DNA of 64,000 nt, from assembly GCF_024502345.1 (NCBI RefSeq), contig NZ_JALDNN010000003.1; one strand, written 5' to 3'. The translations under genes and the position numbers were made by a program. The notes beneath the pieces were generated by a model. That model made no database searches. It was not told where the DNA came from and worked only from the letters and a program-made list of their open reading frames with translations. Shown here in pieces: positions 1 through 27,082 of this stretch (positions within the stretch are counted from its first letter, which is position 1; every line of letters begins with the position of its first letter). Source of the DNA: Escherichia coli (GTDB lineage: Bacteria; Pseudomonadota; Gammaproteobacteria; Enterobacterales; Enterobacteriaceae).

Positions 1-1201
1 CCGTATCACAGTGTCCGCCGGATGCGCCTCGCAGTACGCCGTCAGAACCGGTCAGTACGTTCACATTGAAGTTGGTGTCTACTTCTAATGCGCTCAGTAC
101 CACCACATCCAGACGGTCAACGGATGCGCCTTTTGAACCCCAGTTGGCATACTGGTTTGCACTGATTTCAATGTGGTTTGGGTTGCGGGCCAAGGACTCA
201 GCCGCGTTACGGTCGAAGCTCTGCACGTCCAGCAGTTTGCGAATCAGGCCTTTTTCATGCAGATCCACGATGGTGGCGGTGATGCCGCCCAGCGCGAAGT
301 CAGCACGGATATCGCGGCTGCGCATTTTGTCTTCCAGGAAACGCGTCACGGCCAGAGAAGCGCCGCCGGTGCCTGTCTGCAGTGAGAAGCCTTCATTGAA
401 GTAGCCGGAGTTAGCAATGACCTCTGCCGCGCTACGGGCGATTAACAGTTCACGCGGGTTAGTGGTCATGCGGGTCGCATCAGCACCGATTTTGTCCGCA
501 TCGCCGACCTGATCGATCTGCACGATCAGATCTACCTGATCCTGTGTAATGCTGGCCGGGTTATGTGGATAGGTCAGCAGTTGTTCAGTCAGCAGGACAA
601 CCTGTTTCGCGTTTTCGGCATCTACGCGGGCATAGCCCAGTGAACCGCAGCATGCTTTACCGGTATAACCGTTGGCGTTACCAAACTGGTCGCAGGACGG
701 TACGCCGAGAAACGCCACATCAATGCTGAGTTCGCCACTTTGTACCAAGTGTACACGTCCACCGTGGGAGTGAATCTGTACCGGTTCGGCCAGCAGGCCA
801 CGGGAGATCTCTTCCGCCAGCGGGCCACGCAACCCGGAGGTATAAATACGGCTGACCACGCCCTGACGGATGTGCTCAACCAGCGGAGCATGGCAATCGC
901 TCAGAGAGCTGGAGGCCAGCGTCAGATTTTTAAAGCCCATACTGGCGATGGCGTCCATCACCAGGTTAATCGTCAGATCGCCACCGCGAAAAGCGTGGTG
1001 GAAAGAGATGGTCATGCCATCCTGTAAACCTGAACGACGAATGGCGTCTTCCAGGTTAGCGCACAGCTTTTTGTCGCGCGGTTTTTGCGCCTGTAGTTCT
1101 ACTTTTGCGGTGCTCTGATAAGCGGAAAGCTCACTTTCTGCATGACGGCTCCAGGTCGCCACGCGATCCTGGCGTTGAGACTGTTCGATTTTCTGCGTCA
1201 T
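1..1201 (-). CDS. citF: citrate lyase alpha subunit (citrate CoA-transferase), 5' part only; gene runs off window start
   Basis: Reverse-strand ATG at 1201 gives MTQKIEQSQRQDRVATW..., matching CitF N-terminus; lies directly downstream of citE in operon order. Confidence 0.9.
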   Translation of the reverse strand, partial: MTQKIEQSQRQDRVATWSRHAESELSAYQSTAKVELQAQKPRDKKLCANLEDAIRRSGLQDGMTISFHHAFRGGDLTINLVMDAIASMGFKNLTLASSSLSDCHAPLVEHIRQGVVSRIYTSGLRGPLAEEISRGLLAEPVQIHSHGGRVHLVQSGELSIDVAFLGVPSCDQFGNANGYTGKACCGSLGYARVDAENAKQVVLLTEQLLTYPHNPASITQDQVDLIVQIDQVGDADKIGADATRMTTNPRELLIARSAAEVIANSGYFNEGFSLQTGTGGASLAVTRFLEDKMRSRDIRADFALGGITATIVDLHEKGLIRKLLDVQSFDRNAAESLARNPNHIEISANQYANWGSKGASVDRLDVVVLSALEVDTNFNVNVLTGSDGVLRGASGGHCDT

Positions 1202-1210
1202 TTTTTTGCC

Positions 1211-2119
1211 TTATTCTTCGCGAATGCCGGAAAGTTCTGCACGGGAGATAACCAGAAGGGCGCGCTCGATAACCGGGCTGTCGACCATTTTGCCGTTCAG
1301 GGAAACCACTCCACGACCTTCGCGGGCAGCGGCTTCAGCGGCTTCTACGACCAAACGGGCGTGAGCCAGCTCTTTGCGCGTCGGGGCGTACAGGTTATGC
1401 AGGAGTTCGATCTGGCGCGGGTTGATGAGCGACTTGCCGTCAAAACCCAACTGCTTGATGTGTGCGGCTTCGTGCAGGAAACCTGCTTCGTTGTTGGCAT
1501 CGGAATACACGGTGTCGAACGCCTGAATACCGGCAGAACGTGCAGCCTGCAAAATAGAGCAGCGGGCAAACAGCAGTTCAGTACCCTCCGGCGAGCGTTC
1601 AGTGCGCAGGTTACGCACATAATCTTCAGCACCCAGAGCAATACCGATCAGGCGCTCGGAAGCGTGGGCAATTTCTACCGCACGGGTAATGCCTAACGGC
1701 GACTCAATGGCGGCTAACAGGCCGGTGCTGCCGGGTTCACGGCCACAGGCGTTCTCGATGCGCAGAATTTCACTTTCGATGTCGATGACATCCTGCGCGG
1801 TATCGGTCTTCGGTAAACGTACGATGTCAGCACCGCCGCGTACCACGGCTTCAAGGTCGTTGATGCCCCATTCGGAGTCGAGGGCGTTTACACGCACGAT
1901 AGTTTCAACGTCGTGATACAGCGGATGCTGCAGCGCGTGGTACACCATGCGGCGAGCGGTATCTTTTTCACGCAACGCGACGGAGTCTTCCAGGTCGAAC
2001 ATCAGTGCATCTGCCGGGTAGATGAACGAGTTGCTGACCATGGCGGCATTGGCACCCGGTACGAACAACATGCTGCGGCGAGTACGGGTTTTACGTTGTT
2101 GCAAAGATGCGGAAATCAC
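1211..2119 (-). CDS. citE: citrate lyase beta subunit (citryl-CoA lyase)
   Basis: Translation [28 protein letters not shown]... near-identical to CitE; GTG at 2119 overlaps citD stop (GTGA coupling); alternative ATG at 2134. Confidence 0.9.
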
Positions 2120-2412
2120 TGGCAATCCTCCCATGGCAGTGCCGGAATACCGCCAGCGCGGGCCAGTAGTGCTTCCAGTCGCGCACGTAAAATGCAGTCC
2201 AGTGCGCCTTTATCATCAACATTTAATTGCACGCCGCGTACGTTGTAGCGGGACAGAACGTCCAGGATGGTGGTCCGAATGGCATCACCGAACTGTTTTT
2301 CGACGCTACTGTTAACCTGCAGGTCAATATCCTGCGAATCGAGTGGGGCGATGCGAATCATCACATCACCGGACTCGAGTGTGCCTGCGACGGCTGCCTG
2401 GTTTATTTTCAT
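2116..2412 (-). CDS. citD: citrate lyase acyl carrier protein (gamma subunit)
   Basis: 98-aa [27 protein letters not shown]... matches CitD; 4-bp overlap with citC. Confidence 0.9.
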
Positions 2413-3485
2413 TTTTCACCTGTTGCTAATGCGGGGGTATTTTGGCGGACTGCCGCACCCGATGAGGCTCGTTCAACCATGCTTTGCAGATAGTGCAGCG
2501 TGGCGTCAGGGACCAGGGATGCGATAGCCGTGAGATCTTTTTTAACCAGCAGCTTGCGCACCCAGGAGGCGGAAATCGGCATCTCCTGGAAGCACAGCCG
2601 CTCAATTTCCACCAGTTCAATCGGTGGGGCGGGAAGCGTTGGGGTCTCCAGCCAGTAGCGCATATCGTTGTTGTACTGGGAGGTGACGGAGCAATACGGC
2701 TCGGTACCGACGAAACGATGTGTAACGCCGAGAGCCGGTGCCAGGTACTGGCGGAAGATTTTCAGGTCTATTTCGGTGTAGCAGTGGTTAATAACGCTCT
2801 GCTCTTTGATGAAGTAGCACGGGAACGTGGCGCGGGAAATGATGTATTCCGAACCGCGATGCACGGTTAAACGTGGAATATCTTTTGTCCCTTTAAGCAC
2901 CAGATCCAACCGGTCTTCATACGGAAACCGTGAGGTATCCTCTTTGACCAAAAACAGATGCAGCCAGTCACATTGTGCGGCCGCCTGTTGGATCAGAAAA
3001 CGATGTCCGTTGGTGAAGGGGTTGGCGTTCATGACGATGCAACCAATTTTTTTCCCTTCACGACGCTGTTTTGCCAGAGATTCAGCGTAACGTTTCAGAC
3101 GCGTGGTGCTGTTTTCCATCAGCACCATAATGCCGGGAACGCTGGTCAGCGTAGAAAAGCCACACTGTTTAAACAGCGATTCGTACTCGGTTTTGGTATA
3201 GATGAAGAGGTGCGTACAGTGGCGCTCATAGGCGAGGTTGATTAACTCGGTCGCCAGCGTCAGCGCTAAGCCTTCGCCCCGTACGGATTCGCAGATGGCG
3301 ACACATTTTATAATATTCCCAGCGATACCGCCGCAGGCAATCAGGCGGTCGTCTCGGGTGACGGTGATAAATACTTCGACGGTGGTGTCAACGCTCAAAT
3401 CATTCTCTTTCAGAAATTGCGTGATAGCCGCCATCTTTTTATTTTCTGAGCGTTTAACTTGCGTGAATATATTATTACCGAACAT
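2409..3485 (-). CDS. citC: [citrate (pro-3S)-lyase] ligase
   Basis: 358-aa [28 protein letters not shown]... colinear with CitC. Confidence 0.92.
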
Positions 3486-3875
3486 AGTGAATAGAGCCCC
3501 GATGCTATATTTGTTACTGGGTTTCTGTTTTTGTTGCTCTGCTTAGCAACCTGATAACGTTTTGTTTGCAATTGAAGGGAATGGTTTTTTATTACGGAGT
3601 ATTTCTTTTTTTCCCTGCTGCATACATCGTAAGGGGTATTTTGGAGGTAATTTTTGATTTATTTCACAATAAGTTAGAAGGTTTTAATGTGTTTTATGGT
3701 TTTAAGTTTTTTAATTAATTTAACCTCGAAATAGCGTGTGGTTTTAATTTGTTTAATTGATTTAAAGTGGGGAATCTGCAACGATCTTGTTTTATACACG
3801 TAACGTGTAAATAAAACATTTCTATTACAACTACAATGAGAAATAAGTTTCGGGCAACGTGGATGAGGAAGATAT
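3486..3875. promoter_or_regulatory. divergent citC / citA intergenic control region, AT-rich with repeated GGTTTTAA-type motifs
   Basis: 390-bp ORF-free AT-rich spacer between divergent operon starts; repeated (G)GTTTTAA(T/G) units visible around 3660-3760. Confidence 0.45.
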
Positions 3876-5537
3876 ATGGCTGAGCAGAAAAATAAAACAC
3901 GGTTTCCTTTTTTCCGCAGCCTGGCGTTTCCTTTACGCATCTTTCTGCTTATTTTGGTCGTTTCTGTTTTTATCATCGCCGCCCTGGCACAATACTTTAC
4001 CGCCAGCTTTGAAGATTATCTGGCCGCGCATGTCCGCGATATGGCAATGAACCAGGCCAAAATCATCGCCTCTAACGACAGTATCATCACGGCAGTTAAA
4101 CATCGTGATTACAAGCGTTTGGCGACGATTGCCGACAAACTGCAGAGCGGAACTGACTTCGACTATGTGGTTATCGGGGATACCAACTCCATTCGTCTAT
4201 ATCATCCGAACCCGGAAAAGATTGGCTACCCGATGCAGTTCACCAAACCCGGTGCGCTGGAAAAAGGGGAAAGCTACTTTATTACCGGTAAAGGGTCCAT
4301 CGGGATGGCAATGCGCGCTAAAACGCCCATCTTTGATGACGATGGCAAAATCATTGGCGTAGTCTCAATTGGTTATCTGATCAGCAAAATCGATAGCTGG
4401 CGATCGGATTTCTTACTCCCGATGGCCGGTGTGTTTATCTTGCTGTTGTTGGTTCTTATGCTGCTATCCTGGTTTTTCGCTGCCCATATTCGTCGGCAGA
4501 TGTTGGGTATGGAACCGAAACAAATTGCGCGGGTGGTACGTCAGCAGGAAGCGTTGTTCAGCTCGGTATATGAAGGATTGATTGCCGTGGATCCTGATGG
4601 ATATATCACCGCAATAAACCGCAGTGCGAGGAAAATGCTGGGGCTGTCTTCACCAGGGCGAAAGTGGCTTGGAAAACCGGTGAGTGAGGTGGTTCAGCCA
4701 GCGGACTTTTTCACCCAACAGATTGCGGAAAAACGACAGGATGCGATGGTAAACTTTAATGGCCTGAGCGTTATCGCCAACCGTGAAGCGATTCGCTCTG
4801 GTGACGAACTGCTTGGGGCAATCATCAGTTTTCGTAGTAAAGATGAAATTGCTACCCTTAATGCGCAATTAACGCAGATCAAACAGTATGTAGAGAGCCT
4901 GAGAACGCTGCGTCATGAGCACCTGAACTGGATGTCGACCATCAATGGCCTGCTGCAAATGAAAGAATATGACAAGGTTCTGGCCATGGTGCAGGGAGAA
5001 TCCCAGGCGCAACAGCAACTGATTGACAGCCTGCGTGGCGCGTTTGCCGATCGTCAGGTCGCCGGTCTGTTGTTTGGCAAGGTTCAGCGCGCACGGGAAC
5101 TGGGCCTCACCATGACTATCGTTCCGGGGAGCCAACTGCATCAACTCCCCGAGGGGCTGGATAGCACAGAGTTTGCAGCAATTGTTGGCAATCTGCTTGA
5201 TAATGCATTTGAAGCGAGCTTACGCACCCAGCAAGGCAACAAGGTCGTAGAGCTCTATTTGAGCGATGAAGGGGATGACGTGATCATCGAAGTTGCCGAT
5301 CAGGGATGCGGTGTGCCGGAAGCATTGCGTGAGAAAATATTTGAACAGGGTGTGAGCACCCGTACCGATGAACCAGGTGAACATGGCATCGGTTTGTATC
5401 TGATTGCAAGTTATGTGAGGCGCTGTGACGGGGTGATTACGCTCGAAGATAACTCCCCTTGCGGTACCTTATTTTCTTTATTTCTTCCGAAAGTGAAAAA
5501 AAATAATGACGGAACCATTAACGCTGTTGATCGTTGA
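3876..5537 (+). CDS. citA: citrate-sensing histidine kinase (CitA/DpiB)
   Basis: 553-aa ORF; periplasmic sensor region plus HisKA/HATPase motifs (DNAFEAS, GIGLYL); colinear with E. coli DpiB. Confidence 0.92.
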   Translation: MAEQKNKTRFPFFRSLAFPLRIFLLILVVSVFIIAALAQYFTASFEDYLAAHVRDMAMNQAKIIASNDSIITAVKHRDYKRLATIADKLQSGTDFDYVVIGDTNSIRLYHPNPEKIGYPMQFTKPGALEKGESYFITGKGSIGMAMRAKTPIFDDDGKIIGVVSIGYLISKIDSWRSDFLLPMAGVFILLLLVLMLLSWFFAAHIRRQMLGMEPKQIARVVRQQEALFSSVYEGLIAVDPDGYITAINRSARKMLGLSSPGRKWLGKPVSEVVQPADFFTQQIAEKRQDAMVNFNGLSVIANREAIRSGDELLGAIISFRSKDEIATLNAQLTQIKQYVESLRTLRHEHLNWMSTINGLLQMKEYDKVLAMVQGESQAQQQLIDSLRGAFADRQVAGLLFGKVQRARELGLTMTIVPGSQLHQLPEGLDSTEFAAIVGNLLDNAFEASLRTQQGNKVVELYLSDEGDDVIIEVADQGCGVPEALREKIFEQGVSTRTDEPGEHGIGLYLIASYVRRCDGVITLEDNSPCGTLFSLFLPKVKKNNDGTINAVDR

Positions 5538-6186
5538 GGATGAAACGCTACTGGCGGAAATGCATGCTGAATATATCCGCCATATACCCGGTTTCAGCCA
5601 GATATGGCTGGCGGGTAATCTTGAGCAGGCGAGGATGATGATTGAGCGTTTTAAGCCCGGTCTGATACTGCTCGATAACTACTTGCCGGACGGCAAGGGA
5701 ATTACGTTGCTGCATGAGCTGACCCAGGCGCGCTATCCGGGCGGCGTAGTGTTTACCACGGCGGCCAGCGATATGGAAACGGTCTCCGAGGCTGTGCGCA
5801 GCGGTGCGTTTGATTACCTGGTCAAACCCATTGCCTACGAGCGGCTGGGGCAGACCCTGACGCGTTATCAACAACGTCGACGCATGTTGGCGGGGAATGA
5901 CAGCGCCAGCCAAAAGCAGATTGATGAAATGTTTAATGCCTACGCGCGGGGCGAACCGAAAGGGGATTTACCGACTGGGATTGATGCGTTAACACTAAAT
6001 GCAGTGTTGAAATTATTCGCCGACCCGACGGTACACCATACTGCGGAAACGATCGCCCAGGCGCTTACCATCAGCCGAACGACTTCCAGACGCTACCTGG
6101 AGTACTGTGCCAGCCGTCATTTGATTATTGCGGAGATTATTCACGGTAAGGTAGGCAGGCCGCAGCGTATTTATCATGGCGGCTAA
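5506..6186 (+). CDS. citB: response regulator CitB/DpiA
   Basis: 226-aa ORF MTEPLTLLIVEDETLLAEMH... receiver domain plus C-terminal HTH; overlaps citA end. Confidence 0.9.
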   Translation: MTEPLTLLIVEDETLLAEMHAEYIRHIPGFSQIWLAGNLEQARMMIERFKPGLILLDNYLPDGKGITLLHELTQARYPGGVVFTTAASDMETVSEAVRSGAFDYLVKPIAYERLGQTLTRYQQRRRMLAGNDSASQKQIDEMFNAYARGEPKGDLPTGIDALTLNAVLKLFADPTVHHTAETIAQALTISRTTSRRYLEYCASRHLIIAEIIHGKVGRPQRIYHGG

Positions 6187-6302: not shown

Positions 6303-7044
6303 TCAGCCGCCAACGACGGCTGAAGAAGAACCTGGTACCATCACTTCAGTTGCGATAATCACAACCAACAGCCCAACCAGAACCGGAACCGAGGTACGTT
6401 TCACCACTTCGAACGGAGAAATCTTTGCCATACCTGCGACAGCGACAACCACGCCGGAGACCGGGGAGATTGTGCGCCCAAGGTTTGACGCCTGCAGCAT
6501 CGGGATAACAAGGTAAGCCGGGTTAATGCCGGAAGAATGCGCCAGCTTAGGGATCATTTCAACGAAGGCGTAGAACGGGGCGTTACCGGAACCCGTAGTC
6601 ATTGCCGCCAGCATAGTCAGGATCACCAGCACCATCATCAAGATAATGCTCGCTGAACCAAACGAGGTGGCGATAGAAATCAGACTCTGAATAAAGCCGA
6701 TTGTGCTCAGACCCTGGGCAAAAACACCCGCAGCGACTAACAACATCACCACGTTAGCAAAGGCATCCGCCATGCCACGGTAAGCGACTTCCAGACCAGA
6801 GAAAACCTTTTGGGTGTTGAACCCACGTACGAACTCCAGAATAGCCGCGATGAGCATGCACAGAACCAGAATCGTAATGATGTGCAACTGCGGGCCCCAT
6901 TTACCATCAAAAATCAGGACGCCAACGATCGGGGTAAACGGCAGAATGGCGTAAAATGACGGGGCAGTCGTGGTGATTTCAGCCACATCTAACATTTCAT
7001 GAGAAATGTTCTCTTTTTTATCCAGAAAACGCTGCCAGAAAAAG
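6303..7044 (-). pseudogene. dcuC: anaerobic C4-dicarboxylate transporter DcuC, 3' fragment (N-terminal ~210 codons missing, cut by IS26)
   Basis: Translation FFWQRFLDKKENISHEMLDVAEITTTAPSFYAILPFTP... matches C-terminal half of DcuC; reading frame runs into IS26 IR at 7045. Confidence 0.85.
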
Positions 7045-7832
7045 GGCACTGTTGCAAATAGTCGGTGGTGATAAACTTATCATCCCCTTTTGCTGATGGA
7101 GCTGCACATGAACCCATTCAAAGGCCGGCATTTTCAGCGTGACATCATTCTGTGGGCCGTACGCTGGTACTGCAAATACGGCATCAGTTACCGTGAGCTG
7201 CAGGAGATGCTGGCTGAACGCGGAGTGAATGTCGATCACTCCACGATTTACCGCTGGGTTCAGCGTTATGCGCCTGAAATGGAAAAACGGCTGCGCTGGT
7301 ACTGGCGTAACCCTTCCGATCTTTGCCCGTGGCACATGGATGAAACCTACGTGAAGGTCAATGGCCGCTGGGCGTATCTGTACCGGGCCGTCGACAGCCG
7401 GGGCCGCACTGTCGATTTTTATCTCTCCTCCCGTCGTAACAGCAAAGCTGCATACCGGTTTCTGGGTAAAATCCTCAACAACGTGAAGAAGTGGCAGATC
7501 CCGCGATTCATCAACACGGATAAAGCGCCCGCCTATGGTCGCGCGCTTGCTCTGCTCAAACGCGAAGGCCGGTGCCCGTCTGACGTTGAACACCGACAGA
7601 TTAAGTACCGGAACAACGTGATTGAATGCGATCATGGCAAACTGAAACGGATAATCGGCGCCACGCTGGGATTTAAATCCATGAAGACGGCTTACGCCAC
7701 CATCAAAGGTATTGAGGTGATGCGTGCATTACGCAAAGGCCAGGCCTCAGCATTTTATTATGGTGATCCCCTGGGCGAAATGCGCCTGGTAAGCAGAGTT
7801 TTTGAAATGTAAGGCCTTTGAATAAGACAAAA
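7045..7832 (+). mobile_element. IS26 (IS6 family), left 788 bp, interrupted by IS66-family insertion
   Basis: Begins GGCACTGTTGCAAA (IS26 terminal IR); contains intact tnp26; sequence ...GAATAAGACAAAAG breaks at 7833. Confidence 0.9.
7108..7812 (+). CDS. tnpA: IS26 transposase Tnp26
   Basis: MNPFKGRHFQRDIILWAVRWYCKYGISYREL...RLVSRVFEM, 234 aa, matches IS26 transposase as I recall it. Confidence 0.95.
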   Translation: MNPFKGRHFQRDIILWAVRWYCKYGISYRELQEMLAERGVNVDHSTIYRWVQRYAPEMEKRLRWYWRNPSDLCPWHMDETYVKVNGRWAYLYRAVDSRGRTVDFYLSSRRNSKAAYRFLGKILNNVKKWQIPRFINTDKAPAYGRALALLKREGRCPSDVEHRQIKYRNNVIECDHGKLKRIIGATLGFKSMKTAYATIKGIEVMRALRKGQASAFYYGDPLGEMRLVSRVFEM

Positions 7833-7862
7833 GTAAGCGTTAAGTGAGCGCCGTATTGACGG

Positions 7863-9455
7863 CTATTTATTGGTGAGATCTACGTTCCATGGCAGCAGTT
7901 CGGCCACTTTGTTGATGGGCCACTCCGGCAATACGCTCAGGATATGGCGAAGGTAACCCTCTGGATCGATACCGTTCAGCCTGCACGTTCCGATCAGACC
8001 ATACAGCAGGGCACCACGTTCACCACCATGATCACTGCCGAAGAAGATGTAGTTTTTCTTGCCCAGACAGACCGCTCGTAGCGCGCGCTCAGCAGCGTTA
8101 TTATCCGGCTCTGCCAGACCATCATCGCAGTAGTAACACAGGGCATCCCACTGGTTCAGTGCATAAGCGAACGCCTCGCCTAACCGGGATTTTTTCGACA
8201 GAGTGGCTCTTTTCTCCACCAACCAGTCATGCAGGGATATCAGCAACGGTTTACTTCGGGACCGTCTGGCGGCCAGCCGCTGAGATGCCGGAAGGCCGCG
8301 TATTTCCTCTTCTATCGCGTATAACTCACTGATGCGCTTCAGAGCCTCCTCTGCTGTGGCCGTCCGGGTGCTGATATAGACGTCATGGATTTTGCGCCGC
8401 GCATGAGCCCAGCATGCCGCTTCTGTCAACGGGCCACCTTCACGCTCTGCGCTGAACAACCTGTCGTACCCTGCGAAGGCATCTGCCTGCAGCACGCCAT
8501 GATAGTGCCGAAGATGTTGCTGAGGGTGTTTCCCCTGTCGGTCCGGTGAGAAGGCGAACCATGCCGCTGGCGGATCTGATGAACCCGCGCTTCTGTTATC
8601 ACGGACATATGTCCAGATACGCCCGGTTTTCGTCTTCTTTCTGCCCGGCGCCAGCACGGGCACCGGAGTGTCATCCGTATGCAGTTTGCGGCAGTCCATC
8701 ACGTAGTGGTAGAGGGCTTCATCCAGCGGGGCCATTAACCGGCAGCACGCATCCACCCAGTTGGAGAGCAGCGCACGACTCAGATCCACACCCTGACGGG
8801 CAAAGATTTCGCACTGGCGATACAGCGGCAGGTGTTCACAGTATTTGGCCGTTAACACGCGGGCCAGCAGACCCGGCCCGGCGATGCCCCGGTCGATAGG
8901 ACGTGAGGGCGCTGGCGCTTCAACGACGCAGTCGCATCGGGTACAGGCCTTTTTCACTCTGACCGTGCGGATCACTTTCAGGGCGCTGGAGACCAGCTCC
9001 AGTTGCTCCGCGCTGACTTCGCTGAGATAGGCCATATCACTACCGCAACCAGGACAGCTGGTTTCAGCTGGCTCCAGTCTGTTTATTTCGCGGGGAAGAT
9101 GTTCCGGTAACGGGCGACGATGACGGGACTGGCGCAACTGACGCGGAACCTGCTGATCATTGTCCCGGCCGTTGTAACGATCGCTTTGCTGCTCCTGCTG
9201 TTTCAGCAGGGCTTCGGCTTCTTCGACCTGCCGGCGTAGCTTTTCTGAACGGGTACCGAACAGCATTCGGCGCAGTTTTTCTATCTGAGCCCGCAGATAT
9301 TCTATTTCACGCTCTTCGTTCTCTATTTTCTCTTCTGCGCGGGCCAGCGCCGAACGCAGGAACGACTCAGTCTCAGCAACGAGACTGAGCTGGCTGTCTT
9401 TCTGGCGAAGCGCGTCTTCCAGCGCAGCGATACGGGCGAGATAGTCCTGACTCAT
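7863..9455 (-). CDS. IS66-family transposase TnpC (orf3)
   Basis: 530-aa ORF with N-terminal coiled coil, zinc-finger (CPGCG...CTRCDC) and DDE core typical of IS66 TnpC. Confidence 0.9.
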   Translation of the reverse strand: MSQDYLARIAALEDALRQKDSQLSLVAETESFLRSALARAEEKIENEEREIEYLRAQIEKLRRMLFGTRSEKLRRQVEEAEALLKQQEQQSDRYNGRDNDQQVPRQLRQSRHRRPLPEHLPREINRLEPAETSCPGCGSDMAYLSEVSAEQLELVSSALKVIRTVRVKKACTRCDCVVEAPAPSRPIDRGIAGPGLLARVLTAKYCEHLPLYRQCEIFARQGVDLSRALLSNWVDACCRLMAPLDEALYHYVMDCRKLHTDDTPVPVLAPGRKKTKTGRIWTYVRDNRSAGSSDPPAAWFAFSPDRQGKHPQQHLRHYHGVLQADAFAGYDRLFSAEREGGPLTEAACWAHARRKIHDVYISTRTATAEEALKRISELYAIEEEIRGLPASQRLAARRSRSKPLLISLHDWLVEKRATLSKKSRLGEAFAYALNQWDALCYYCDDGLAEPDNNAAERALRAVCLGKKNYIFFGSDHGGERGALLYGLIGTCRLNGIDPEGYLRHILSVLPEWPINKVAELLPWNVDLTNK

Positions 9456-9485
9456 GACCCCATTTATAATGCGGTCATGCGCTTT

Positions 9486-9836
9486 TTACAACATCGTCAG
9501 TGAGTTAAGGCGTGCAGTTTTAGGTTGCCGCCAGTCCAGCTTATCGAGGAGCATGGCGAGTTGTGAGCGGGTGATGGCGATTTTGCCGTCGCGTACAGCA
9601 GGCCAGACGAACTGTCCCTCTTCCAGACGTTTGGTAAACAGACACAGACCGTCAGCATCAGCCCAGAGGATCCTCACGGTGTCACCTTTACGACCACGGA
9701 AGATAAACAGGTGGCCGGAGAACGGATTGTCATCAAGAACATGCTGGACCAGTTCGCCCAGACCATTGAAGGACTTACGCATATCGGTGACCCCGGCAAC
9801 CAGCCAGATACGAGTGCCTGACGGTAAGGGTATCAT
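9486..9836 (-). CDS. IS66-family accessory protein TnpB (orf2)
   Basis: MIPLPSGTRIWLVAGVTDMRKSFNGL... ; ATGA overlap with upstream orf1. Confidence 0.85.
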   Translation of the reverse strand: MIPLPSGTRIWLVAGVTDMRKSFNGLGELVQHVLDDNPFSGHLFIFRGRKGDTVRILWADADGLCLFTKRLEEGQFVWPAVRDGKIAITRSQLAMLLDKLDWRQPKTARLNSLTML

Positions 9837-10240
9837 CGGCTCCTCCCGGTCAGCTCGCGGATCAGCGTTTTCAGAAGTGCAGGTGATAAATCCCCGGACA
9901 GACGCAGGCTGGCACCGCCGACAGTCACCTCGCATGTCATGGCCTCGCGGCAGGCTGGAGCGGCGGGTTCATAGTGCGGCTCAGCATGGTGTGACAGGGC
10001 CATATCAGGCAGGACAACGGGGATAACAGAGTCTTGCTCTCTGATTGACCGTTGTATTTCATCGGGCAGAAGATGTCTGTAACGCTGGCGCCAGGTAAAC
10101 AGCAGATTGTCATTAATTCCATTATCCCGCGCCAACCGGGCAACACAGGCTCCAGGCTGATATGACTTTTCGACGAGAGCCAGCTTAAAGTCCATTGAGT
10201 AGGACGCCCGCGCCCTGCGGGGCTGAAGAGTGTTTGACAT
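9833..10240 (-). CDS. IS66-family accessory protein TnpA (orf1), HTH
   Basis: 135-aa ORF first in three-gene IS66 operon. Confidence 0.8.
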   Translation of the reverse strand: MSNTLQPRRARASYSMDFKLALVEKSYQPGACVARLARDNGINDNLLFTWRQRYRHLLPDEIQRSIREQDSVIPVVLPDMALSHHAEPHYEPAAPACREAMTCEVTVGGASLRLSGDLSPALLKTLIRELTGRSR

Positions 10241-10326
10241 TGATAGAGTCCATTAACGTTAATAAGAGGACTCTATCATCGTCAATCGTTAGTAATCGCA
10301 ACAGGCGGCAGTGGCTTGACGCTTAC

Positions 10327-10366
10327 AGACAAAAGGCTGCCTCATCGCTAACTTTGCAACAGTGCC
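10327..10366 (+). mobile_element. IS26 right end (includes duplicated AGACAAAA, then 32 bp ending in IS26 IR)
   Basis: AGACAAAAGGCTGCCTCATCGCTAACTTTGCAACAGTGCC continues IS26 exactly where it was broken at 7832. Confidence 0.85.
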
Positions 10367-10455
10367 GTCGCTGACATCGTGCAACGACACAGAGCTAACG
10401 CTTAGGGTGTCATTTCGCCCTCAGCCGGAACCGACCCCAAGGACAGCGACTCTCA

Positions 10456-12834
10456 GTGATGGAGCACCTAAAAAGAGGCCCTGTCACTATCAGCGGCCCC
10501 GCATTCACTGAAGCACTTGAACGTTACACTCGCCTGCGCAGCCTGGAATTTTCCTGCCTGAATTTCACTGGGCTGCCTGCCATACAGCTCCGCAACCTGG
10601 CACGCTATGCCGGAATGGCATCGGTGAAATATATCAGCAGAATGCCAGAAGAACGGCGGCTGGCTATCCTTACCGCGTTCGTGAAAGCGCAAGAAATCTC
10701 GGCGCTGGACGAGGCCGTTGACGTGCTGGATATGCTGATCCTCAATATTACCAGGGAGGCGAAGAAAACCGGGCAGAAAAAGCGACTTAGGACGCTCAAG
10801 GATCTTGACCGTGCGGCGTTGTTGCTGGCGCGGGCATGTGCACTTTTACTTGATGAAGATACTGGTGATGATTTGCTGCGAAAGACCATATTCAGCAGTG
10901 TACCTGTCGCCAGACTGGCAGAGTCAGTGGAAAAAGTGAATGAACTGGCCCGCCCCCAGGATACAAACTTTCAGGATGAAATGGTGGAGCAGTACGGACG
11001 GGTAAGGCGTTTTTTGCCCGCACTACTGCGCGATCTGCACTTCCGGGCGGCCCCAGACGGTGAACATACCCTCGCGGCCATCCATTACCTGGCAGAGCTA
11101 AACGGCTCGAAAAAACGGATCCTGGACGATGCACCTGAGCATATCATTTCAGGCCCTTGGAAACGCCTGGTGTACGATGCTGAAGGTCGGATACAGCGAG
11201 CGGGTTACTCGTTGTGTCTGCTGGAGCGACTTCAGGATGCGCTACGCCGTCGTGACATCTGGTTGGAAAACAGCGATCGTTGGGGTGATCCGCGCCAAAA
11301 ACTTCTTCAGGGGGAGGAATGGCAGGCGCAGCGGGTTCCAGTGTGCCGGGCATTGGGTCACCCCACCAATGGCAGTAAAGCATCGGTGCAATTGGCAGCA
11401 CGGTTGGATGAAACCTGGAAAACGGTGGCATCACGTTTTGACCGCAATACCGCCGTAGACATCTGCAATGAAGGTAAACATCCTTCGCTGACCATCAGCA
11501 GCCTGGATAAATTGGATGAGCCACCGGCGCTGATACGACTGAGCAGCCGAGTCAGACAATTGCTCCCACCCGTTGACCTGACAGAACTGTTGCTTGAGAT
11601 TGACGCCAGAACGGGTTTCACCCGTGAATTCAGCCATGTCAGCGAGTCAGGTGCCCGCGCGCAGGATCTGCATATAAGCCTGTGTGCGGTGATGCTGGCT
11701 GAGGCCTGCAATATCGGACATGAGCCGCTGATCAAGCACAATATCCCTGCACTGACCCGCCATCGCCTGAGCTGGGTGAAACAGAACTACATCCGAGCAG
11801 AAACGCTGGTCAGCGCCAATGCGCGGCTGGTTGATTTTCAGTCCTCGTTAGCGTTGGCAGGATACTGGGGTGGCGGTGAGGTGGCCTCCGCTGATGGTAT
11901 GCGTTTTGTCACACCAGTGAAAACGGTGAATTCTGGCCCCAACAGAAAATACTTTGGTTCAGGGCGCGGCATTACCTGGTACAACTTTGTCTCTGACCAA
12001 TATTCGGGTTTTCATGGCATAGTGATCCCTGGAACGCTGCGGGATTCCATTTTTGTGCTGGAGGGACTACTTGAGCAACAAACGGGACTAAACCCGGTTG
12101 AAATCATGACGGACACAGCAGGTACCAGTGACATTATCTTTGGCTTGTTCTGGCTACTGGGATACCAATTTTCACCTCGTCTGGCGGATGCTGGTGAGGC
12201 GGTGTTCTGGCGGGCTGACAAAGCAGCGAATTACGGGGCGTTGGACGAACTGGCTCGGGGTTGTGTTGACCTTTCTAAAATCGAAAGCCACTGGGATGAG
12301 ATGATGCGGGTTGCAGGTTCGCTGAAGCTGGGCACAATTCATGCGTCAGAACTCATTCGATCGCTATTGAGAAGTACCCGACCGTCAGGGCTTGCTCAGG
12401 CAATAATGGAGGTCGGAAGAGTTAACAAGACACTGTATCTTCTCAACTATATTGATGATGAGGACTATCGCCGCAGGATCCTAACACAGCTTAACCGGGG
12501 CGAAGGTCGCCATGCCGTGGCAAGAGCCATTTGCTACGGTCAGCGTGGTGAGATCAGAAAACGTTACCGCGAGGGGCAGGAAGATCAGTTGGGTGCGCTG
12601 GGTCTGGTGACAAACGCAGTGGTGCTGTGGAATACGCTTTATATGCAGGAAGCCTTGTCGCACCTGCGTAGCACTGGGGAAGGGCCAGAAGATGAACATA
12701 TCGCGCGGCTTTCGCCTCTGATGCATGGTCATATCAACATGCTGGGACATTATACGTTCACACTACCGGAGGATATTATGAAGGGGGAATTGAGGCCGTT
12801 AAATCTCAATTTAAACAATGAATTACCTCCTTAG
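10456..12834 (+). pseudogene. Tn3-family transposase TnpA, 5'-truncated (about 200 N-terminal codons missing; upstream 90 bp in a different frame)
   Basis: 792-aa translation colinear with C-terminal ~4/5 of Tn3-family TnpA (about 1000 aa); starts at IS26 junction; stop codon lies inside terminal IR. Confidence 0.85.
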
Positions 12835-21287: not shown

Positions 21288-21781
21288 GGAAATGGATCAG
21301 CGACTAAATCTGTTGCTCGCCGTAAATACAAGTGCGCACCATAAAATAAAAACACTTTATAAATCAATGACTTTGTCAAAGCTAAGTAGAGATGTCCGGG
21401 GTGGGGCAAAGTTCAAATGTCCTTTGATAATATTGAATTCCTGGATAAAAATCGCATCTTAACCTCTTCGTTTGAGTACCTTGTTGGGTTGACCCCGTAT
21501 TCGCTTTATTTGTAGTATTGGGCTGCTTTGAAGTGTTTCATGTTCAAACGCGACGTGTTCTGTAAGTTCTTCCTGACAACAGAGCCGACAATATATACAC
21601 ATCCGCTATGGAGAATCTGACAACCGCTATGCGTATTACGCCACCCTGAGTTTTTCCTTCCTCTGTCGTACTGAGCAAGCCTCAGCACGCACTCAATAAC
21701 ATCCCGTCTGCGGATGTGCTTTACCGTACGTAAAAATGTAGCCCTCCAGGGCTGACTGTATCTAAAAACTGAGAAATTACT

Positions 21782-23260
21782 ATGTTGCTGTCCTCGACGC
21801 GTAAGGACTGGCTGGGTAACGTCCGTGGTGACGTTCTGGCCGGTATTGTTGTCGCGCTCGCACTCATTCCAGAAGCGATCGCCTTTTCCATTATCGCCGG
21901 TGTTGATCCCCAGGTGGGCCTCTACTCGGCGTTCTGTATTCCTCTCGTTATGGCCTTCTTTGGCGGACGTCCGGCGATGATTTCGTCCTCCACCGGTGCA
22001 ATGGCTCTCCTGATGGTGACGCTGGTGAAAGATCATGGCTTACAGTATTTACTGGCTGCCTCCATACTGACCGGGGTATTCCAGCTGATAGCCGGATATC
22101 TGAAGCTTGGCGGGCTGATGCGTTTTGTTTCACGCTCAGTGGTCACGGGGTTTGTTAATGCACTGGCAATACTGATTTTTATGGCCCAGTTGCCTGAGCT
22201 GACCAATGTGACATGGCATGTTTATGCCATGACTGCGGCAGGGCTGGGGATCATCTATCTCTTCCCTTATATCAACAAAACCATTCCTTCACCGCTTGTG
22301 TGCATCGTGGTGCTGACTGGGATTGCCATGTGGCTGCATCTGGATGTGCGAACCGTCGGGGATATGGGGAAACTTCCCGACAGTCTGCCGGTCTTCCTGC
22401 TCCCGGACGTGCCTTTAAATCTTCAGACGCTGCTCATCATCCTGCCATATTCTGCGGGGCTTGCGGTGGTTGGCCTGCTTGAGTCGATGATGACCGCCAC
22501 TATCGTGGATGACATGACCGACACGCCAAGCGACAAAAACAGGGAGTGCAAAGCTCAGGGCATCGCGAACATCTGCACATCCTTTATCGGAGGAATGGCA
22601 GGCTGCGCGATGATTGGGCAATCTGTTATCAACGTAAAATCCGGTGGACGCGGACGACTTTCAACCCTCACGGCGGGCGTGGTGCTGCTTTGCCTGATTG
22701 TGTTCCTGCGCAACTGGGTCTCCCAAATTCCGATGGCAGCGCTGGTCGCGGTGATGATTATGGTTTCCATCGGGACATTCTCCTGGCGCTCCATTGCCAA
22801 CCTGCGGACACACCCCCTTTCAACCAGCGTGGTCATGCTTGCCACCGTAGCGGTTGTGGTGGCAACACATAATCTGGCCTTCGGTGTGCTGACCGGTGTA
22901 CTGATTGCTTCGCTCAATTTTGCCACTAAAGTATCCCGGTTCATGCGTGTAACCTCAGTTCTGGAGGGGACGAGCCGGACGTATACCGTCACCGGCCAGG
23001 TATTCTTTGCATCAGCAGACCGCTTTACGAGCCACTTTGATTTCCGTGAAGCGATTGAGAATGTGGTGATAGACGTTTCACATGCCCATTTCTGGGACAT
23101 CACGTCCGTCAGCGCCCTGGATAAGGTGGTCATTAAGTTCCGCAGAGAGGGCGCCGGGGTTGAAATACGTGGGATGAATGAAGCCACCCGCACCATCGTT
23201 GACCGGTTTGGTGTTCACGATAAACCTGAAGAAGTCGAAAAACTGATGGGCGGTCATTAA
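21782..23260 (+). CDS. SulP-family anion transporter with C-terminal STAS domain
   Basis: 492 aa, about 10 TM segments, SulP signature region and STAS-like C-terminus. Confidence 0.85.
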
Positions 23261-23278
23261 CAGACTGGAGGGAAAACT

Positions 23279-24106
23279 ATGAATAATACTGTTACAGCTT
23301 GTGTGGACGGTTCACTTTCAACGCGGTCAGTGTGTGAATATGCGGCGTGGGCAGCCCGCACTTTGCAATCACAGCTAGCACTGTTGCACGTTATCGAAAA
23401 AGACAGCACCCCGGTAGTGTCAGACCTGACCGGCACTCTCGGCATAGACAGTCAGCAATTGCTGACCGATGAGCTGGTAGAAATTGAAGGGCAACGTAAT
23501 CGCCTGCTGATGGCCCAGGGGAAAGCAATACTGGAAAGTTGTGCTGAACTGCTTCAAAAACAGGGAAGCCCGGATGTGCTTTTGATGCAAAAACACGGTA
23601 CACCGGATGAAGTTCTGGCAGAGCTGAGCGACCTTCGTCTCATGGTGCTGGGGCGTCGGGGTAGCCAGCATCCGGTAGGCTCTCATCTGGAAAGCGTTAT
23701 TCGTCTGCAAAAGAAACCCCTACTGGTTGTTCCGGAGAACTACTCAGTGCCTTCCAGAGTCATGCTGGCTTATGATGGCAGTGAAGAAAGCAGGAGTAAC
23801 CTGGAACGTCTGACGATGAGTCCCTTACTCAGGGGGCTGGAGTGCCACCTTGTCATGGTAAACGGTAAGAAGGAAGAGCTGCTGACCGCACAGCAAATTT
23901 TACGTGACGCGGATATAGAAAACAGCACAACACATCTTACCGGGCAATCAGTCGGGGACGCGCTTATTCGTTACGCCGAGGAAAATGCTGTCGATCTGAT
24001 AGTGATGGGGGCCTACGGTCATTCCAGGTTGCGGCAGTTCTTTATCGGTAGTCATACCTCCGAAATGCTGCAAAAGACGCAACAACCGCTTCTTATCCTC
24101 CGTTAG
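23279..24106 (+). CDS. universal stress protein, tandem UspA domains
   Basis: 275 aa with two Usp-like halves (VLGRRG..., VMGAYGHSRL...). Confidence 0.8.
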   Translation: MNNTVTACVDGSLSTRSVCEYAAWAARTLQSQLALLHVIEKDSTPVVSDLTGTLGIDSQQLLTDELVEIEGQRNRLLMAQGKAILESCAELLQKQGSPDVLLMQKHGTPDEVLAELSDLRLMVLGRRGSQHPVGSHLESVIRLQKKPLLVVPENYSVPSRVMLAYDGSEESRSNLERLTMSPLLRGLECHLVMVNGKKEELLTAQQILRDADIENSTTHLTGQSVGDALIRYAEENAVDLIVMGAYGHSRLRQFFIGSHTSEMLQKTQQPLLILR

Positions 24107-24125
24107 CACTGATTATCTTAAATAA

Positions 24126-24150
24126 AAAAGGGCGAGTTCTCTCGCCCTTC
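24126..24150. terminator. bidirectional stem-loop terminator between usp and arsC (convergent)
   Basis: AAAAAAGGGCGAGTTCTCTCGCCCTTCGT hairpin flanked by A/T runs. Confidence 0.5.
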
Positions 24151-24165
24151 GTCACAAGAACACGT

Positions 24166-24591
24166 TTAGTTCAGCCGGTTACCTTTTTCATCAACTACCT
24201 TCTCACCGTCCTCTTTCGTGAACGCGCTTTTCTGCGCATCGGGAAGAATATCCAGCACGACTTCAGAAGGGCGGCATAGCCGGGTACCCAGCGGCGTTAC
24301 CACGATAGGGCGATTGATCAGAACAGGGTGCTGCAACATAAAATCGATTAACTGCTCGTCAGTAAAGCGGTCTTCCGCCAGCCCTAACGCTTCAAAAGGT
24401 TCGACATTCTTACGCAGCAGCGCTCGTACCGTGATCCCCATATCCGCAATGAGTTTTACCAGCTCAGCTCGTGATGGTGGGGTTTCAAGATAATGAATAA
24501 CGGTCGGCTCTGTACCGCTGTTGCGGATCATTTCAAGGGTATTGCGTGACGTGCCGCAGGCCGGGTTGTGATAAATGGTAATGTTGCTCAT
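24166..24591 (-). CDS. arsC: arsenate reductase (glutaredoxin-type)
   Basis: 141 aa MSNITIYHNPACGTSRNTLEMIR... classic ArsC. Confidence 0.92.
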   Translation of the reverse strand: MSNITIYHNPACGTSRNTLEMIRNSGTEPTVIHYLETPPSRAELVKLIADMGITVRALLRKNVEPFEALGLAEDRFTDEQLIDFMLQHPVLINRPIVVTPLGTRLCRPSEVVLDILPDAQKSAFTKEDGEKVVDEKGNRLN

Positions 24592-24603
24592 ATCAGTATC
24601 TCA

Positions 24604-25893
24604 TTACAAAGTGAAAGACAGACGAAGCGCCAGTGCTGCAAGCGTGACAAACAGCACGGGGATTGTCATGACAATGCCCACCCGGAAGTAATATCCCCAG
24701 GTAATTTTGATATTTTTCTGCGACAGAACGTGCAGCCACAGTAACGTTGCCAGACTGCCGATAGGGGTAATTTTTGGCCCCAGGTCGCTGCCGATGACGT
24801 TGGCGTAAATCATCGCTTCTTTGATAACACCGGTCGCAGTGCTGCCATCAATCGACAGCGCCCCGACCAGCACGGTCGGCATATTGTTCATCACTGATGA
24901 CAGGAAGGCCGTCAGGAAGCCCGTACCCAGCGTTGCCGCCCACAATCCCTGCTCTGCCAGCTGATTCAGCAAGGAAGAGAGATAGTGGGTCAGACCGGCA
25001 TTTCGTAAGCCGTAGACCACCAGGTACATCCCCAGCGAGAAGATAACGATTTGCCAGGGCGCACCACGCAGCACCTTACCGGTGTTAATGGCATGCCCTT
25101 TTTTCGCAACAGCAAACAGAAGCAATGCACCAGCGGCTGCGACCAAACTGACCGGTACGCCCAGCGGCTCCAGTCCGAAGAATCCCACCAGAAGCAACAC
25201 CAGAACCAGCCAGCCGGTTTTAAAGGTATTCACATCACGTATAGCGTCTTTCGGTTCTTTCAACAGAGAAACGTCGTAAACGGCGGGAATGTCCTTACGG
25301 AAAAACAGATGCAGCATCACCAGCGTAGCCGCAATCGCGGCCAGGTTAACCGGGACCATCACGGCGGCATATTCTGAGAAACCAAGCTTAAAGAAATCCG
25401 CCGAGACGATATTCACCAGGTTTGAGACAATCAGTGGCAGGCTTGCCGTGTCAGCGATAAACCCTGCGGCCATGATAAACGCTAAGGTTGCCCCCCGGCT
25501 GAATCCCAGCGCCAGCAGCATCGCGATAACGATAGGTGTCAGGATCAGTGCCGCACCGTCGTTGGCAAACAGTGCCGCAACCATCGCACCAAGCAGGACG
25601 ATCCAGGTGAAGAGCAGCCGCCCCCGGCCATTCCCCCAACGGGCAACGTGCAGCGCGGCCCATTCAAAGAAGCCGGATTCGTCGAGCAGAAGACTGATGA
25701 TGATCACGGCGATAAAGGTGGCGGTCGCATTCCACACTATCTGCCAGACCACCGGAATATCCCCCAGATGAACGACGCCAGTCAGCAATGCCAGAATTGC
25801 GCCCAGTGAGGCACTCCAGCCAATCCCCAGCCCTCTGGGTTGCCAGATAACCAGGACGAGCGTGAATAAAAAGATAGCACCAGCCAGTAACAT
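24604..25893 (-). CDS. arsB: arsenite efflux permease
   Basis: [28 protein letters not shown]... about 429 aa polytopic membrane protein matching ArsB. Confidence 0.92.
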
Positions 25894-25938
25894 CAGAAAC
25901 TCCATTCACATTTGTTTATTCGGATATATATATCGCCA

Positions 25939-26259
25939 TCAGCAGGAGACAGATGCCACGCTACTGAGCTTGTTGCGTATGTTTTCTCGTTCACAGTTCC
26001 AGGCTGTATCAATAATACCCGCAGCCCATGCTGGCATGTGTGGCGACAGTCGGTAATGCACCCATTTTCCTTCGCGACGGTCGATGACCAGCTCGGCTTC
26101 ACGTAAAAGGGCCATATGGCGAGAAATTTTTGGCTGAGACTCTGCGGTTGCCGCACAGATGTCACAGACGCACATTTCACCGGACTCCCTGAGAAGCATC
26201 ACGATAGTTGAACGGGTCTCGTCGGCGAGCAGTTTAAAAAGCTGAACAGGCTGTAGCAT
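25939..26259 (-). CDS. arsR: arsenical resistance operon repressor (ArsR/SmtB family)
   Basis: MLQPVQLFKLLADETRSTIVMLL...ELCVCDIC (metal-binding CVC)... Confidence 0.88.
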   Translation of the reverse strand: MLQPVQLFKLLADETRSTIVMLLRESGEMCVCDICAATAESQPKISRHMALLREAELVIDRREGKWVHYRLSPHMPAWAAGIIDTAWNCERENIRNKLSSVASVSC

Positions 26260-26345
26260 GCTTAACCTCGTAAAAAAATAACAATACATATGGTATTTCA
26301 TATGTGATAACTTTTAAAGCATAGCTTATGAAATGGAGATTTTTT

Positions 26346-27050: not shown

Positions 27051-27082
27051 CAGCCAGGCATGCCCGGATGGATTACCGGGCT

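What the first reader, a model, noticed from the sequence alone, without database searches (positions are those of the whole stretch)
7045..10366. IS66-family element nested inside IS26 with 8-bp target duplication
IS26 sequence is continuous across the insertion once 7833-10326 is removed (...GAATAAGACAAAA|GGCTGCC...). The 8 bp AGACAAAA are present on both sides of a 2494-bp element that starts and ends with GTAAGCG-type inverted repeats and encodes the three-ORF IS66 set. The insertion lies downstream of tnp26 and within about 35 bp of the IS26 right end, so IS26 may still be mobilisable while carrying an IS66 passenger.
Basis: seen in the sequence. Interest (0 to 1): 0.4.

Follow-up and report, generated by a model that had tools for sequence, protein, structure and literature searches.

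The report
IS66-family element nested inside IS26
One common jumping gene (a 2.5-kb IS66-family insertion sequence, labelled ISEsp1 by one depositor) has landed inside the non-coding tail of another (IS26) on an IncHI1-type plasmid; this is a real but ordinary nested insertion with no sign that the pair has spread as a unit.

Summary
IS26 spans 7045-10366. It is split after its base 788 by a 2494-bp IS66-family element (7833-10326), flanked by the 8-bp duplication AGACAAAA. Removing the element and one duplicate leaves an 820-bp IS26 with one silent difference from canonical copies.

The insert carries intact tnpA, tnpB and tnpC on the minus strand and imperfect GTAAGCGT terminal repeats. Identical copies lie at many other sites, and 10 of 12 checked copies have their own 8-bp duplication at the same termini. 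One depositor labels a copy differing by a 2-bp indel as ISEsp1.

The nested pair was found in only one public record, E. coli MSB1_9D plasmid 2. It sits there between the same flanks as in the window, which comes from a related plasmid. No second copy and no other context turned up.

IS26 keeps an intact transposase gene and both 14-bp ends. A published synthetic analogue, IS26::catA1, stays active, so the pair is probably still mobilisable by Tnp26. That is inference only.

Verdict: a real, ordinary nested insertion of low interest.

The parts
7045..7832 (+). IS26, bases 1-788 (left part), including the 14-bp left terminal repeat at 7045-7058
   Evidence: Matches canonical IS26 except for the silent C685T at 7729.
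7108..7812 (+). tnp26, intact (234 aa)
   Evidence: The translation is identical to that of canonical IS26 in L005. The identical segment in NZ_LR890350.1 is annotated WP_001067855.1. DDE_Tnp_IS240 E=2.4e-48 and NF033587 E=2.3e-82.
7825..7832 (.). Left copy of the 8-bp target duplication AGACAAAA (IS26 bases 781-788)
   Evidence: Present only once in intact IS26.
7833..10326 (-). 2494-bp IS66-family insertion sequence (the copy labelled ISEsp1 by the depositor of MZ382871.1 differs from it by a 2-bp indel)
   Evidence: 100% identical full-length copies occur in at least 16 plasmids and several E. coli chromosomes. Ten of 12 checked copies elsewhere have their own 8-bp duplication at the same termini. 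Depositor label; 2-bp difference.
7833..7853 (.). Terminal inverted repeat of the IS66 element at the tnpC-proximal end, GTAAGCGTTAAGTGAGCGCCG
   Evidence: 16 of 21 bases match the other end.
7863..9455 (-). tnpC, DDE transposase (530 aa)
   Evidence: DDE_Tnp_IS66 E=5.6e-97, plus zf-IS66, LZ_Tnp_IS66 and DDE_Tnp_IS66_C. NF033517 scores 450 bits against a cutoff of 180. The exact protein is seen on 669 contigs.
9486..9836 (-). tnpB, IS66 accessory protein (116 aa)
   Evidence: TnpB_IS66 E=5.9e-36. NF033819 scores 118.5 bits against a cutoff of 50.
9833..10240 (-). tnpA, IS66 accessory protein (135 aa); its stop codon overlaps the tnpB start in ATGA
   Evidence: HTH_Tnp_1 E=2.3e-12. NF047595 scores 80.6 bits against a cutoff of 74. 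Overlap shown.
10306..10326 (.). Terminal inverted repeat of the IS66 element at the tnpA-proximal end (reverse complement GTAAGCGTCAAGCCACTGCCG)
10327..10334 (.). Right copy of the 8-bp target duplication AGACAAAA
10335..10366 (+). IS26, bases 789-820 (right part), including the 14-bp right terminal repeat at 10353-10366
6303..7044 (-). Left flank: dcuC remnant lacking its N-terminus, cut by IS26
   Evidence: RefSeq annotation of the collinear NZ_LR890350.1. The 8 bp next to IS26 on the two sides differ (AGAAAAAG and GTCGCTGA).
10435..12834 (+). Right flank: Tn3-family transposase remnant lacking its N-terminus, starting 68 bp beyond the IS26 right end
   Evidence: RefSeq annotation; ORF.

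Best explanation
An active IS66-family insertion sequence transposed into the short non-coding tail of an IS26 copy on an IncHI1-type plasmid. It is identical, apart from a 2-bp indel, to copies labelled ISEsp1, and it uses the DDE transposase TnpC with accessory proteins TnpA and TnpB. It entered between IS26 bases 788 and 789 and made the family's usual 8-bp duplication (AGACAAAA).

Shown here: the insertion event, both element identities, intact genes and ends in both elements, and recent mobility of the IS66 element.

Inferred: the insertion left tnp26 and both 14-bp IS26 ends untouched, so the 3314-bp composite should still be a substrate for Tnp26. In copy-in cointegrate formation the whole composite would be duplicated. 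In targeted conservative reactions with ordinary IS26 copies, only the left end, with 788 bp of uninterrupted identity, should react. The data give no sign that either has happened since the insertion.
For: - Exact junctions, duplication and rebuilt 820-bp IS26.
- Three IS66 ORFs above curated cutoffs.
- Copies 100% identical in at least 16 plasmids of Klebsiella, Enterobacter, Citrobacter and E. coli, and in E. coli chromosomes.
- Ten of 12 checked copies elsewhere have different 8-bp duplications at the same termini. The 11 duplicated targets, including the one in the window, are AT-rich (31% GC), as is the IS26 site.
- The chromosome of the strain whose plasmid carries the composite (MSB1_9D) holds an identical copy with its own duplication, AAAGTAAT. 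This points to recent transposition in that lineage.
- The Tnp26 protein sequence is unchanged and both terminal repeats are intact.
- IS26::catA1 has its insert between IS26 bases 775 and 776 and keeps 44 bp of native right end. It formed targeted cointegrates at wild-type frequency, in 30 of 30 cases at the left end (PMC7885326).
- Tnp26 binds probes containing 40 bp of either IS26 end, and the authors attribute recognition to the 14-bp repeat (PMC8477213). Here 40 bp of contiguous IS26 sequence remain at the right end, counting the duplicated 8 bp.
Against: - There is no evidence that the composite has moved. It occurs once, between the same flanks (dcuC remnant on one side, Tn3-family tnpA remnant on the other), in the window and in NZ_LR890350.1. 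These are collinear for 21.4 kb with 5 SNPs.
- NZ_LR890350.1 has about nine other IS26 places and none carries the insert.
- The left-junction sequence gave 0 hits in 100,044 species-representative genomes and in JGI metagenomes.
- Only 32 bp of native right end remain, against 44 bp in the tested construct. The minimum needed for copy-in has not been defined in the papers read here.
- tnpC converges on tnp26, so antisense transcription could lower Tnp26 expression. This was not tested.
Confidence: 0.93

Rival explanations
1. The IS26 copy is functionally dead. With the insert so close to the right end, and with convergent transcription from tnpC, the composite can no longer form cointegrates and is a fossil carried passively by the plasmid.
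For: - One copy, one context and no spread.
- Only 32 bp of native right end remain.
- In the synthetic analogue the right end never reacted in the targeted mode.
- This IS26 has no target duplication of its own, so its last detectable activity may predate the insertion.
Against: - The Tnp26 protein sequence is unchanged and both 14-bp repeats are intact.
- IS26::catA1 was as active as wild type through its left end.
- Tnp26 binds probes containing 40 bp of the right end, with recognition attributed to the 14-bp repeat.
- Absence of spread is expected for a recent event in a rarely sampled lineage.
Confidence: 0.3
2. The structure is an assembly artefact: two multi-copy repeats (IS26 and the IS66 element) were wrongly joined.
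For: Both elements are repeats, which often cause misassembly. The window's source is unknown.
Against: - A misjoin would not create a precise 8-bp duplication at the exact termini that the element uses at 10 other sites.
- It would not leave an IS26 that rebuilds to exactly 820 bp.
- The identical 3322-bp structure occurs in a separate complete record, NZ_LR890350.1. That record differs from the window by SNPs and by rearrangements further along.
Confidence: 0.01
3. The arrangement arose by recombination between separate IS26 fragments flanking an IS66 element, or by IS26 activity around an existing IS66 copy, rather than by IS66 transposition into IS26.
For: IS26 often truncates or abuts IS66-family elements. 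Four other records with near-complete matches to the query turned out to be side-by-side arrangements, not nested ones.
Against: The two IS26 segments are exactly complementary (1-788 and 781-820) and share only the 8 bp expected from an IS66-type duplication. The IS66 element is complete, with both terminal repeats. IS26-mediated events end at IS26 termini, not 32 bp inside the element.
Confidence: 0.01

Closest known systems
ISEsp1 (IS66 family; ISfinder name used in the mcr-9 literature)
   Same: The copy in MZ382871.1, annotated by its depositor as 'ISEsp1 family transposase / ISEsp1 accessory protein / IS66 TnpB', differs from the window element only by a 2-bp indel. Papers place ISEsp1 in Enterobacter chromosomes and IncHI2 plasmids next to mcr-9 (PMC10940312, PMC13049778).
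   Different: The ISfinder reference sequence could not be consulted, so the name rests on a depositor's label. NCBI's pipeline gives it only the generic name 'IS66 family transposase'.
ISKox1 (IS66 family)
   Same: Same three-gene layout, the same first 12 terminal bases (GTAAGCGTTAAG / CTTGACGCTTAC) and an 8-bp duplication (L005). TnpC is 93% identical, and the two fall in one 90% protein cluster.
   Different: About 80% nucleotide identity in a global alignment, and 2526 bp against 2494 bp. By the usual ISfinder criteria (my own knowledge) this makes it a different IS.
IS26::catA1, the synthetic IS26 with an internal passenger (Harmer and Hall 2021, PMC7885326)
   Same: Foreign DNA is inserted downstream of tnp26 and upstream of the right terminal repeat. 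tnp26 and both repeats are intact. It is the direct experimental model for what such a composite can do: wild-type targeted cointegrate frequency, always through the left end.
   Different: The model is synthetic, with a 699-bp catA1 fragment between bases 775 and 776 and 44 bp of native right end. Here the insertion is natural, 2502 bp including the duplication, lies between bases 788 and 789, and leaves 32 bp of native right end. The passenger is itself an autonomous IS transcribed towards tnp26.
Canonical IS26 (820 bp)
   Same: Once the insert is removed it matches at 819 of 820 bases, with an identical Tnp26 and 14-bp repeats. The silent T685 variant is itself common, occurring in at least 208 PLSDB records.
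   Different: It is interrupted at base 788. It has no flanking 8-bp duplication of its own, and the flanks are remnants of dcuC and a Tn3-family tnpA.

Membership tests
IS66 family (canonical three-ORF group) | DDE transposase TnpC with the IS66 catalytic domain and zinc-finger and leucine-zipper N-terminal domains | tested here: met
   PF03050 E=5.6e-97, plus PF13005, PF13007 and PF13817. NF033517 scores 450 bits against a cutoff of 180.
IS66 family (canonical three-ORF group) | Accessory genes tnpA and tnpB upstream of tnpC, with tnpA and tnpB overlapping | tested here: met
   TnpB: PF05717 E=5.9e-36, and NF033819 scores 118.5 bits (cutoff 50). TnpA: NF047595 scores 80.6 bits (cutoff 74). 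ATGA overlap at 9833-9836.
IS66 family (canonical three-ORF group) | Imperfect terminal inverted repeats of roughly 20 bp beginning GTAAGCG (family description from my own knowledge of Han et al. 2001 and Gourbeyre et al. 2010, not read here) | tested here: met
   GTAAGCGT at both ends, and 16 of 21 terminal bases match.
IS66 family (canonical three-ORF group) | 8-bp target site duplication | tested here: met
   AGACAAAA in the window. Ten of 12 checked copies of this element elsewhere have their own 8-bp duplication, and so does an ISKox1 copy.
IS66 family (canonical three-ORF group) | Identity with a named ISfinder entry (ISEsp1) | tested here: inconclusive
   Only a depositor's label on a copy that differs by a 2-bp indel. 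ISfinder is not available through these tools.
IS26 (IS6/IS26 family) | 820-bp element with perfect 14-bp terminal repeats GGCACTGTTGCAAA | tested here: met
   The rebuilt sequence is 820 bp and matches four intact copies at 819 of 820 bases. Both repeats are present.
IS26 (IS6/IS26 family) | Intact 234-aa Tnp26 | tested here: met
   The translation is identical to that of canonical IS26. The identical segment in NZ_LR890350.1 is annotated WP_001067855.1. NF033587 E=2.3e-82.
IS26 (IS6/IS26 family) | 8-bp duplication flanking the IS26 copy (expected after a simple copy-in event followed by resolution) | tested here: not met
   The flanks are AGAAAAAG and GTCGCTGA. This is common for IS26 copies that have taken part in deletions or recombination. 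It does not argue against identity as IS26.
IS26 (IS6/IS26 family) | Ability of the interrupted copy to form cointegrates | not testable with these tools
   Inferred only from the IS26::catA1 analogue. No second copy or context was found.

The most novel reading that the evidence does not exclude
The IS26::IS66 composite is a working natural counterpart of the synthetic IS26::catA1. Tnp26 would copy or translocate the whole 3.3-kb unit, so the IS66 element rides on IS26's high traffic between plasmids. The unit's targeted conservative reactions with ordinary IS26 copies would be confined to the left end. That would make it a natural one-ended marker for studying the IS26 mechanism and a route for spreading one IS inside another.
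Probability: 0.4. Interest if true: 0.3.

Novelty: already known. Interest (0 to 1): 0.1.

Why it matters
It matters little beyond correct annotation. Both elements are well known, and one IS landing inside another is routine on resistance and IncHI plasmids. The identical structure already sits in a public record, where the genes are annotated but the nesting is not.

Two modest uses remain. The unique junctions and the 8-bp duplication make a good epidemiological marker for this plasmid lineage. The composite is also a natural version of the IS26::catA1 construct used to show that targeted conservative cointegration needs extended identity at the reacting end. It could test how little right-end sequence IS26 needs, 32 bp here against 44 bp in the construct.

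Tried and rejected
- **Composite elsewhere.** I searched the full 3322-bp composite against 72,556 plasmids and 5,426 complete E. coli genomes. Only NZ_LR890350.1 holds it.
- **Near-complete matches.** Four other records with more than 80% coverage (H27, H28, H29, H64) looked promising. Their annotation shows IS26 lying beside an IS66-family element (ISKox1, ISEc23 and others), not nested in it.
- **Junction scans.** An orientation-specific left-junction pattern and one that catches either orientation found nothing in genome contigs. The either-orientation pattern also found nothing in metagenome contigs. These collections have limited power: one genome per species, and short contigs that break at repeats.
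- **Empty site.** I looked for an ancestor with the dcuC remnant, intact IS26 and the Tn3-family tnpA remnant, to order the events. No PLSDB record has it, so the order of IS26 rearrangement and IS66 insertion stays unknown.
- **Silent SNP as lineage marker.** C685T in this IS26 is not usable, because at least 208 PLSDB records carry it.
- **Promoter and terminator scan of 6950-10500.** No promoter-like sites, and terminator-like sites at the chance level (4 found, 3.0 expected). This says nothing useful about expression.
- **Papers not held.** Han et al. 2001 on IS679 (PMC95320) and 'IS26 cannot move alone' (PMID 33686401) could not be read. Statements about them rest on my own knowledge.
- **Is the window NZ_LR890350.1?** No. 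It is collinear for 21,387 bp with 5 SNPs and then diverges.
Full report
**1. The observation**

The region was read directly and checked by script.
- IS26 begins at 7045 with GGCACTGTTGCAAA and ends at 10366 with the inverted copy of that repeat.
- The 8 bp AGACAAAA occur at 7825-7832 and again at 10327-10334.
- Between them lies a 2494-bp segment (7833-10326) that starts GTAAGCGT and ends ACGCTTAC. Sixteen of its first 21 terminal bases are inverted-repeat matches.
- Joining 7045-7832 to 10335-10366 gives exactly 820 bp.

This rebuilt sequence matches four intact IS26 copies from unrelated plasmids at 819 of 820 positions. The single difference, C685T at window 7729, is silent, so the Tnp26 protein sequence is unchanged. 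That variant is itself widespread, occurring in at least 208 PLSDB records.

Intact IS26 reads ...GAATAAGACAAAAGGCTGCC... with one AGACAAAA. The 8 bp are therefore a true duplication of IS26 sequence. The insertion point lies between IS26 bases 788 and 789, which is 20 bp after the tnp26 stop codon and 32 bp from the right end.

The only slip is that restoring IS26 needs removal of the element plus one copy of the duplication.

**2. What the insert is**

Three ORFs lie on the minus strand.

| Gene | Coordinates | Length | Family evidence |
|---|---|---|---|
| tnpA | 9833-10240 | 135 aa | HTH_Tnp_1; NF047595 above its cutoff |
| tnpB | 9486-9836 | 116 aa | TnpB_IS66, E=5.9e-36 |
| tnpC | 7863-9455 | 530 aa | DDE_Tnp_IS66, E=5.6e-97, with zinc-finger, leucine-zipper and C-terminal IS66 domains; NF033517 at 450 bits (cutoff 180) |

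The tnpA stop codon overlaps the tnpB start in ATGA.

The whole 2494 bp is 100% identical to copies in at least 16 plasmids of Klebsiella, Enterobacter, Citrobacter and E. coli, and in several E. coli chromosomes. In total 103 PLSDB records have a match of at least 99%.

I fetched further copies of the element and compared their flanks. Of the 12 copies that lie outside the composite, ten have a different 8-bp direct repeat at exactly these termini. An ISKox1 copy in the same set shows the same pattern. This settles the element's boundaries and its duplication length. The 11 duplicated targets, including the one in the window, are AT-rich (31% GC). AGACAAAA, in the AT-rich tail of IS26, fits that pattern.

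One depositor (MZ382871.1) labels a copy that differs only by a 2-bp indel as ISEsp1. ISEsp1 is an ISfinder name that appears in the mcr-9 literature. ISfinder could not be queried, so the name is provisional.

The nearest relative that NCBI names is ISKox1. Its TnpC is 93% identical, its nucleotide identity is about 80%, and it has the same first 12 terminal bases.

**3. Distribution of the nested pair**

The 3322-bp composite was searched against PLSDB and all complete RefSeq E. coli genomes. Only NZ_LR890350.1 contains it, at 100% identity. This is plasmid 2 of E. coli MSB1_9D, IncHI1A, 300.6 kb, from a rectal swab in Australia. Four other high-coverage hits are side-by-side IS26 and IS66-family arrangements, not nested ones.

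The window is not that record. It is collinear with it for 21,387 bp with 5 SNPs, none inside the composite, and then differs by rearrangements. It is therefore a sister plasmid that carries the composite between the same flanks, a dcuC remnant and a Tn3-family tnpA remnant. This is vertical inheritance of one event, not independent movement.

NZ_LR890350.1 has about nine other IS26 places and only one IS66 place, so the composite has not been duplicated there. Junction patterns found nothing in species-representative genomes or JGI metagenomes.

The MSB1_9D chromosome holds an identical IS66 copy with its own duplication, AAAGTAAT. The element was therefore recently active in that lineage. 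This is the likely setting for the hop into IS26, or out of it.

**4. How it most likely works**

Shown: a standard IS66-family transposition event into IS26.

Inferred: IS26 function survives. tnp26 and both 14-bp repeats are intact.

Harmer and Hall built IS26::catA1, with 699 bp inserted between IS26 bases 775 and 776, leaving 44 bp of native right end. It formed targeted conservative cointegrates with R388::IS26 at 5.5e-4, the same as wild type. All 30 cointegrates examined had reacted at the left end, because the reaction needs extended identity at the reacting end (PMC7885326). Tnp26 binds probes containing 40 bp of either IS26 end, and the authors attribute recognition to the 14-bp repeat (PMC8477213).

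By analogy, the natural composite should react with other IS26 copies through its left end only. In copy-in events it should duplicate as a 3314-bp unit.

Three points remain uncertain:
- only 32 bp of native right end remain;
- tnpC is transcribed towards tnp26;
- no database evidence shows any activity after the insertion.

The IS26 copy has no target duplication of its own. It was therefore involved in earlier rearrangements, but no empty-site ancestor was found to order the events.

**5. Comparison, novelty and verdict**

Both elements pass every family test that could be run here. IS26 itself lacks a flanking duplication, but that is not a defining feature. Nested insertion sequences are commonplace, and the structure already exists in a public record.

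Its only modest value is as a lineage marker and as a natural analogue of an engineered IS26 derivative.

Noticed in passing
window 1-6186: A citrate fermentation cluster (citF, citE-like, citD, citC) with the two-component system dpiB/dpiA sits on this IncHI1-type plasmid, directly upstream of the dcuC remnant cut by IS26. The cluster has therefore lost its adjacent dicarboxylate transporter gene.
   Followed up: partly
window 10435-12834: A Tn3-family transposase gene lacking its N-terminus starts 68 bp beyond the IS26 right end. IS26 has no target duplication of its own (AGAAAAAG and GTCGCTGA), so both flanks look like products of earlier IS26-mediated deletion or recombination.
   Followed up: partly
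window 7729: A silent C-to-T change at IS26 base 685 relative to the commonest IS26. The same variant occurs in at least 208 PLSDB records, some annotated IS15DIV, so it is a common IS26 isoform and not a marker of this copy.
   Followed up: yes
window 21388-28556 and beyond 34616: The window departs from its closest relative, NZ_LR890350.1, in two places. It carries a SulP transporter, universal stress protein and arsC/arsB/arsR/arsH module next to ISNCY-family elements where the relative has IS3 and ISNCY copies. It also lacks the IS26 that the relative has after the ISLad2 element. The window's source plasmid is in neither PLSDB nor the complete E. coli RefSeq set.
   Followed up: partly
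L007 (NZ_LR890349.1 52391-54885): The chromosome of E. coli MSB1_9D carries an identical copy of the IS66 element between a DUF932 gene and a WYL-domain gene, with the duplication AAAGTAAT. K. pneumoniae KSB1_9E, also from Australia, has another identical copy on a plasmid. This hints at local circulation of the element.
   Followed up: partly
L003 (NZ_CP059483.1) and L010 (NZ_CM176338.1): Two full-length copies of the IS66 element lack matching 8-bp flanks. In L010 the element lies between another IS66-family tnpC fragment and a pcoS fragment. This suggests later recombination or deletion between copies.
   Followed up: no
window 7850-7873: A small GC-rich hairpin followed by a T-run (GCCGTATTGACGGC TATTTATTGG) sits just inside the IS66 end on the plus strand, immediately downstream of tnp26. 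It could stop tnp26 read-through, but terminator-like sites in the region are no more frequent than chance.
   Followed up: partly
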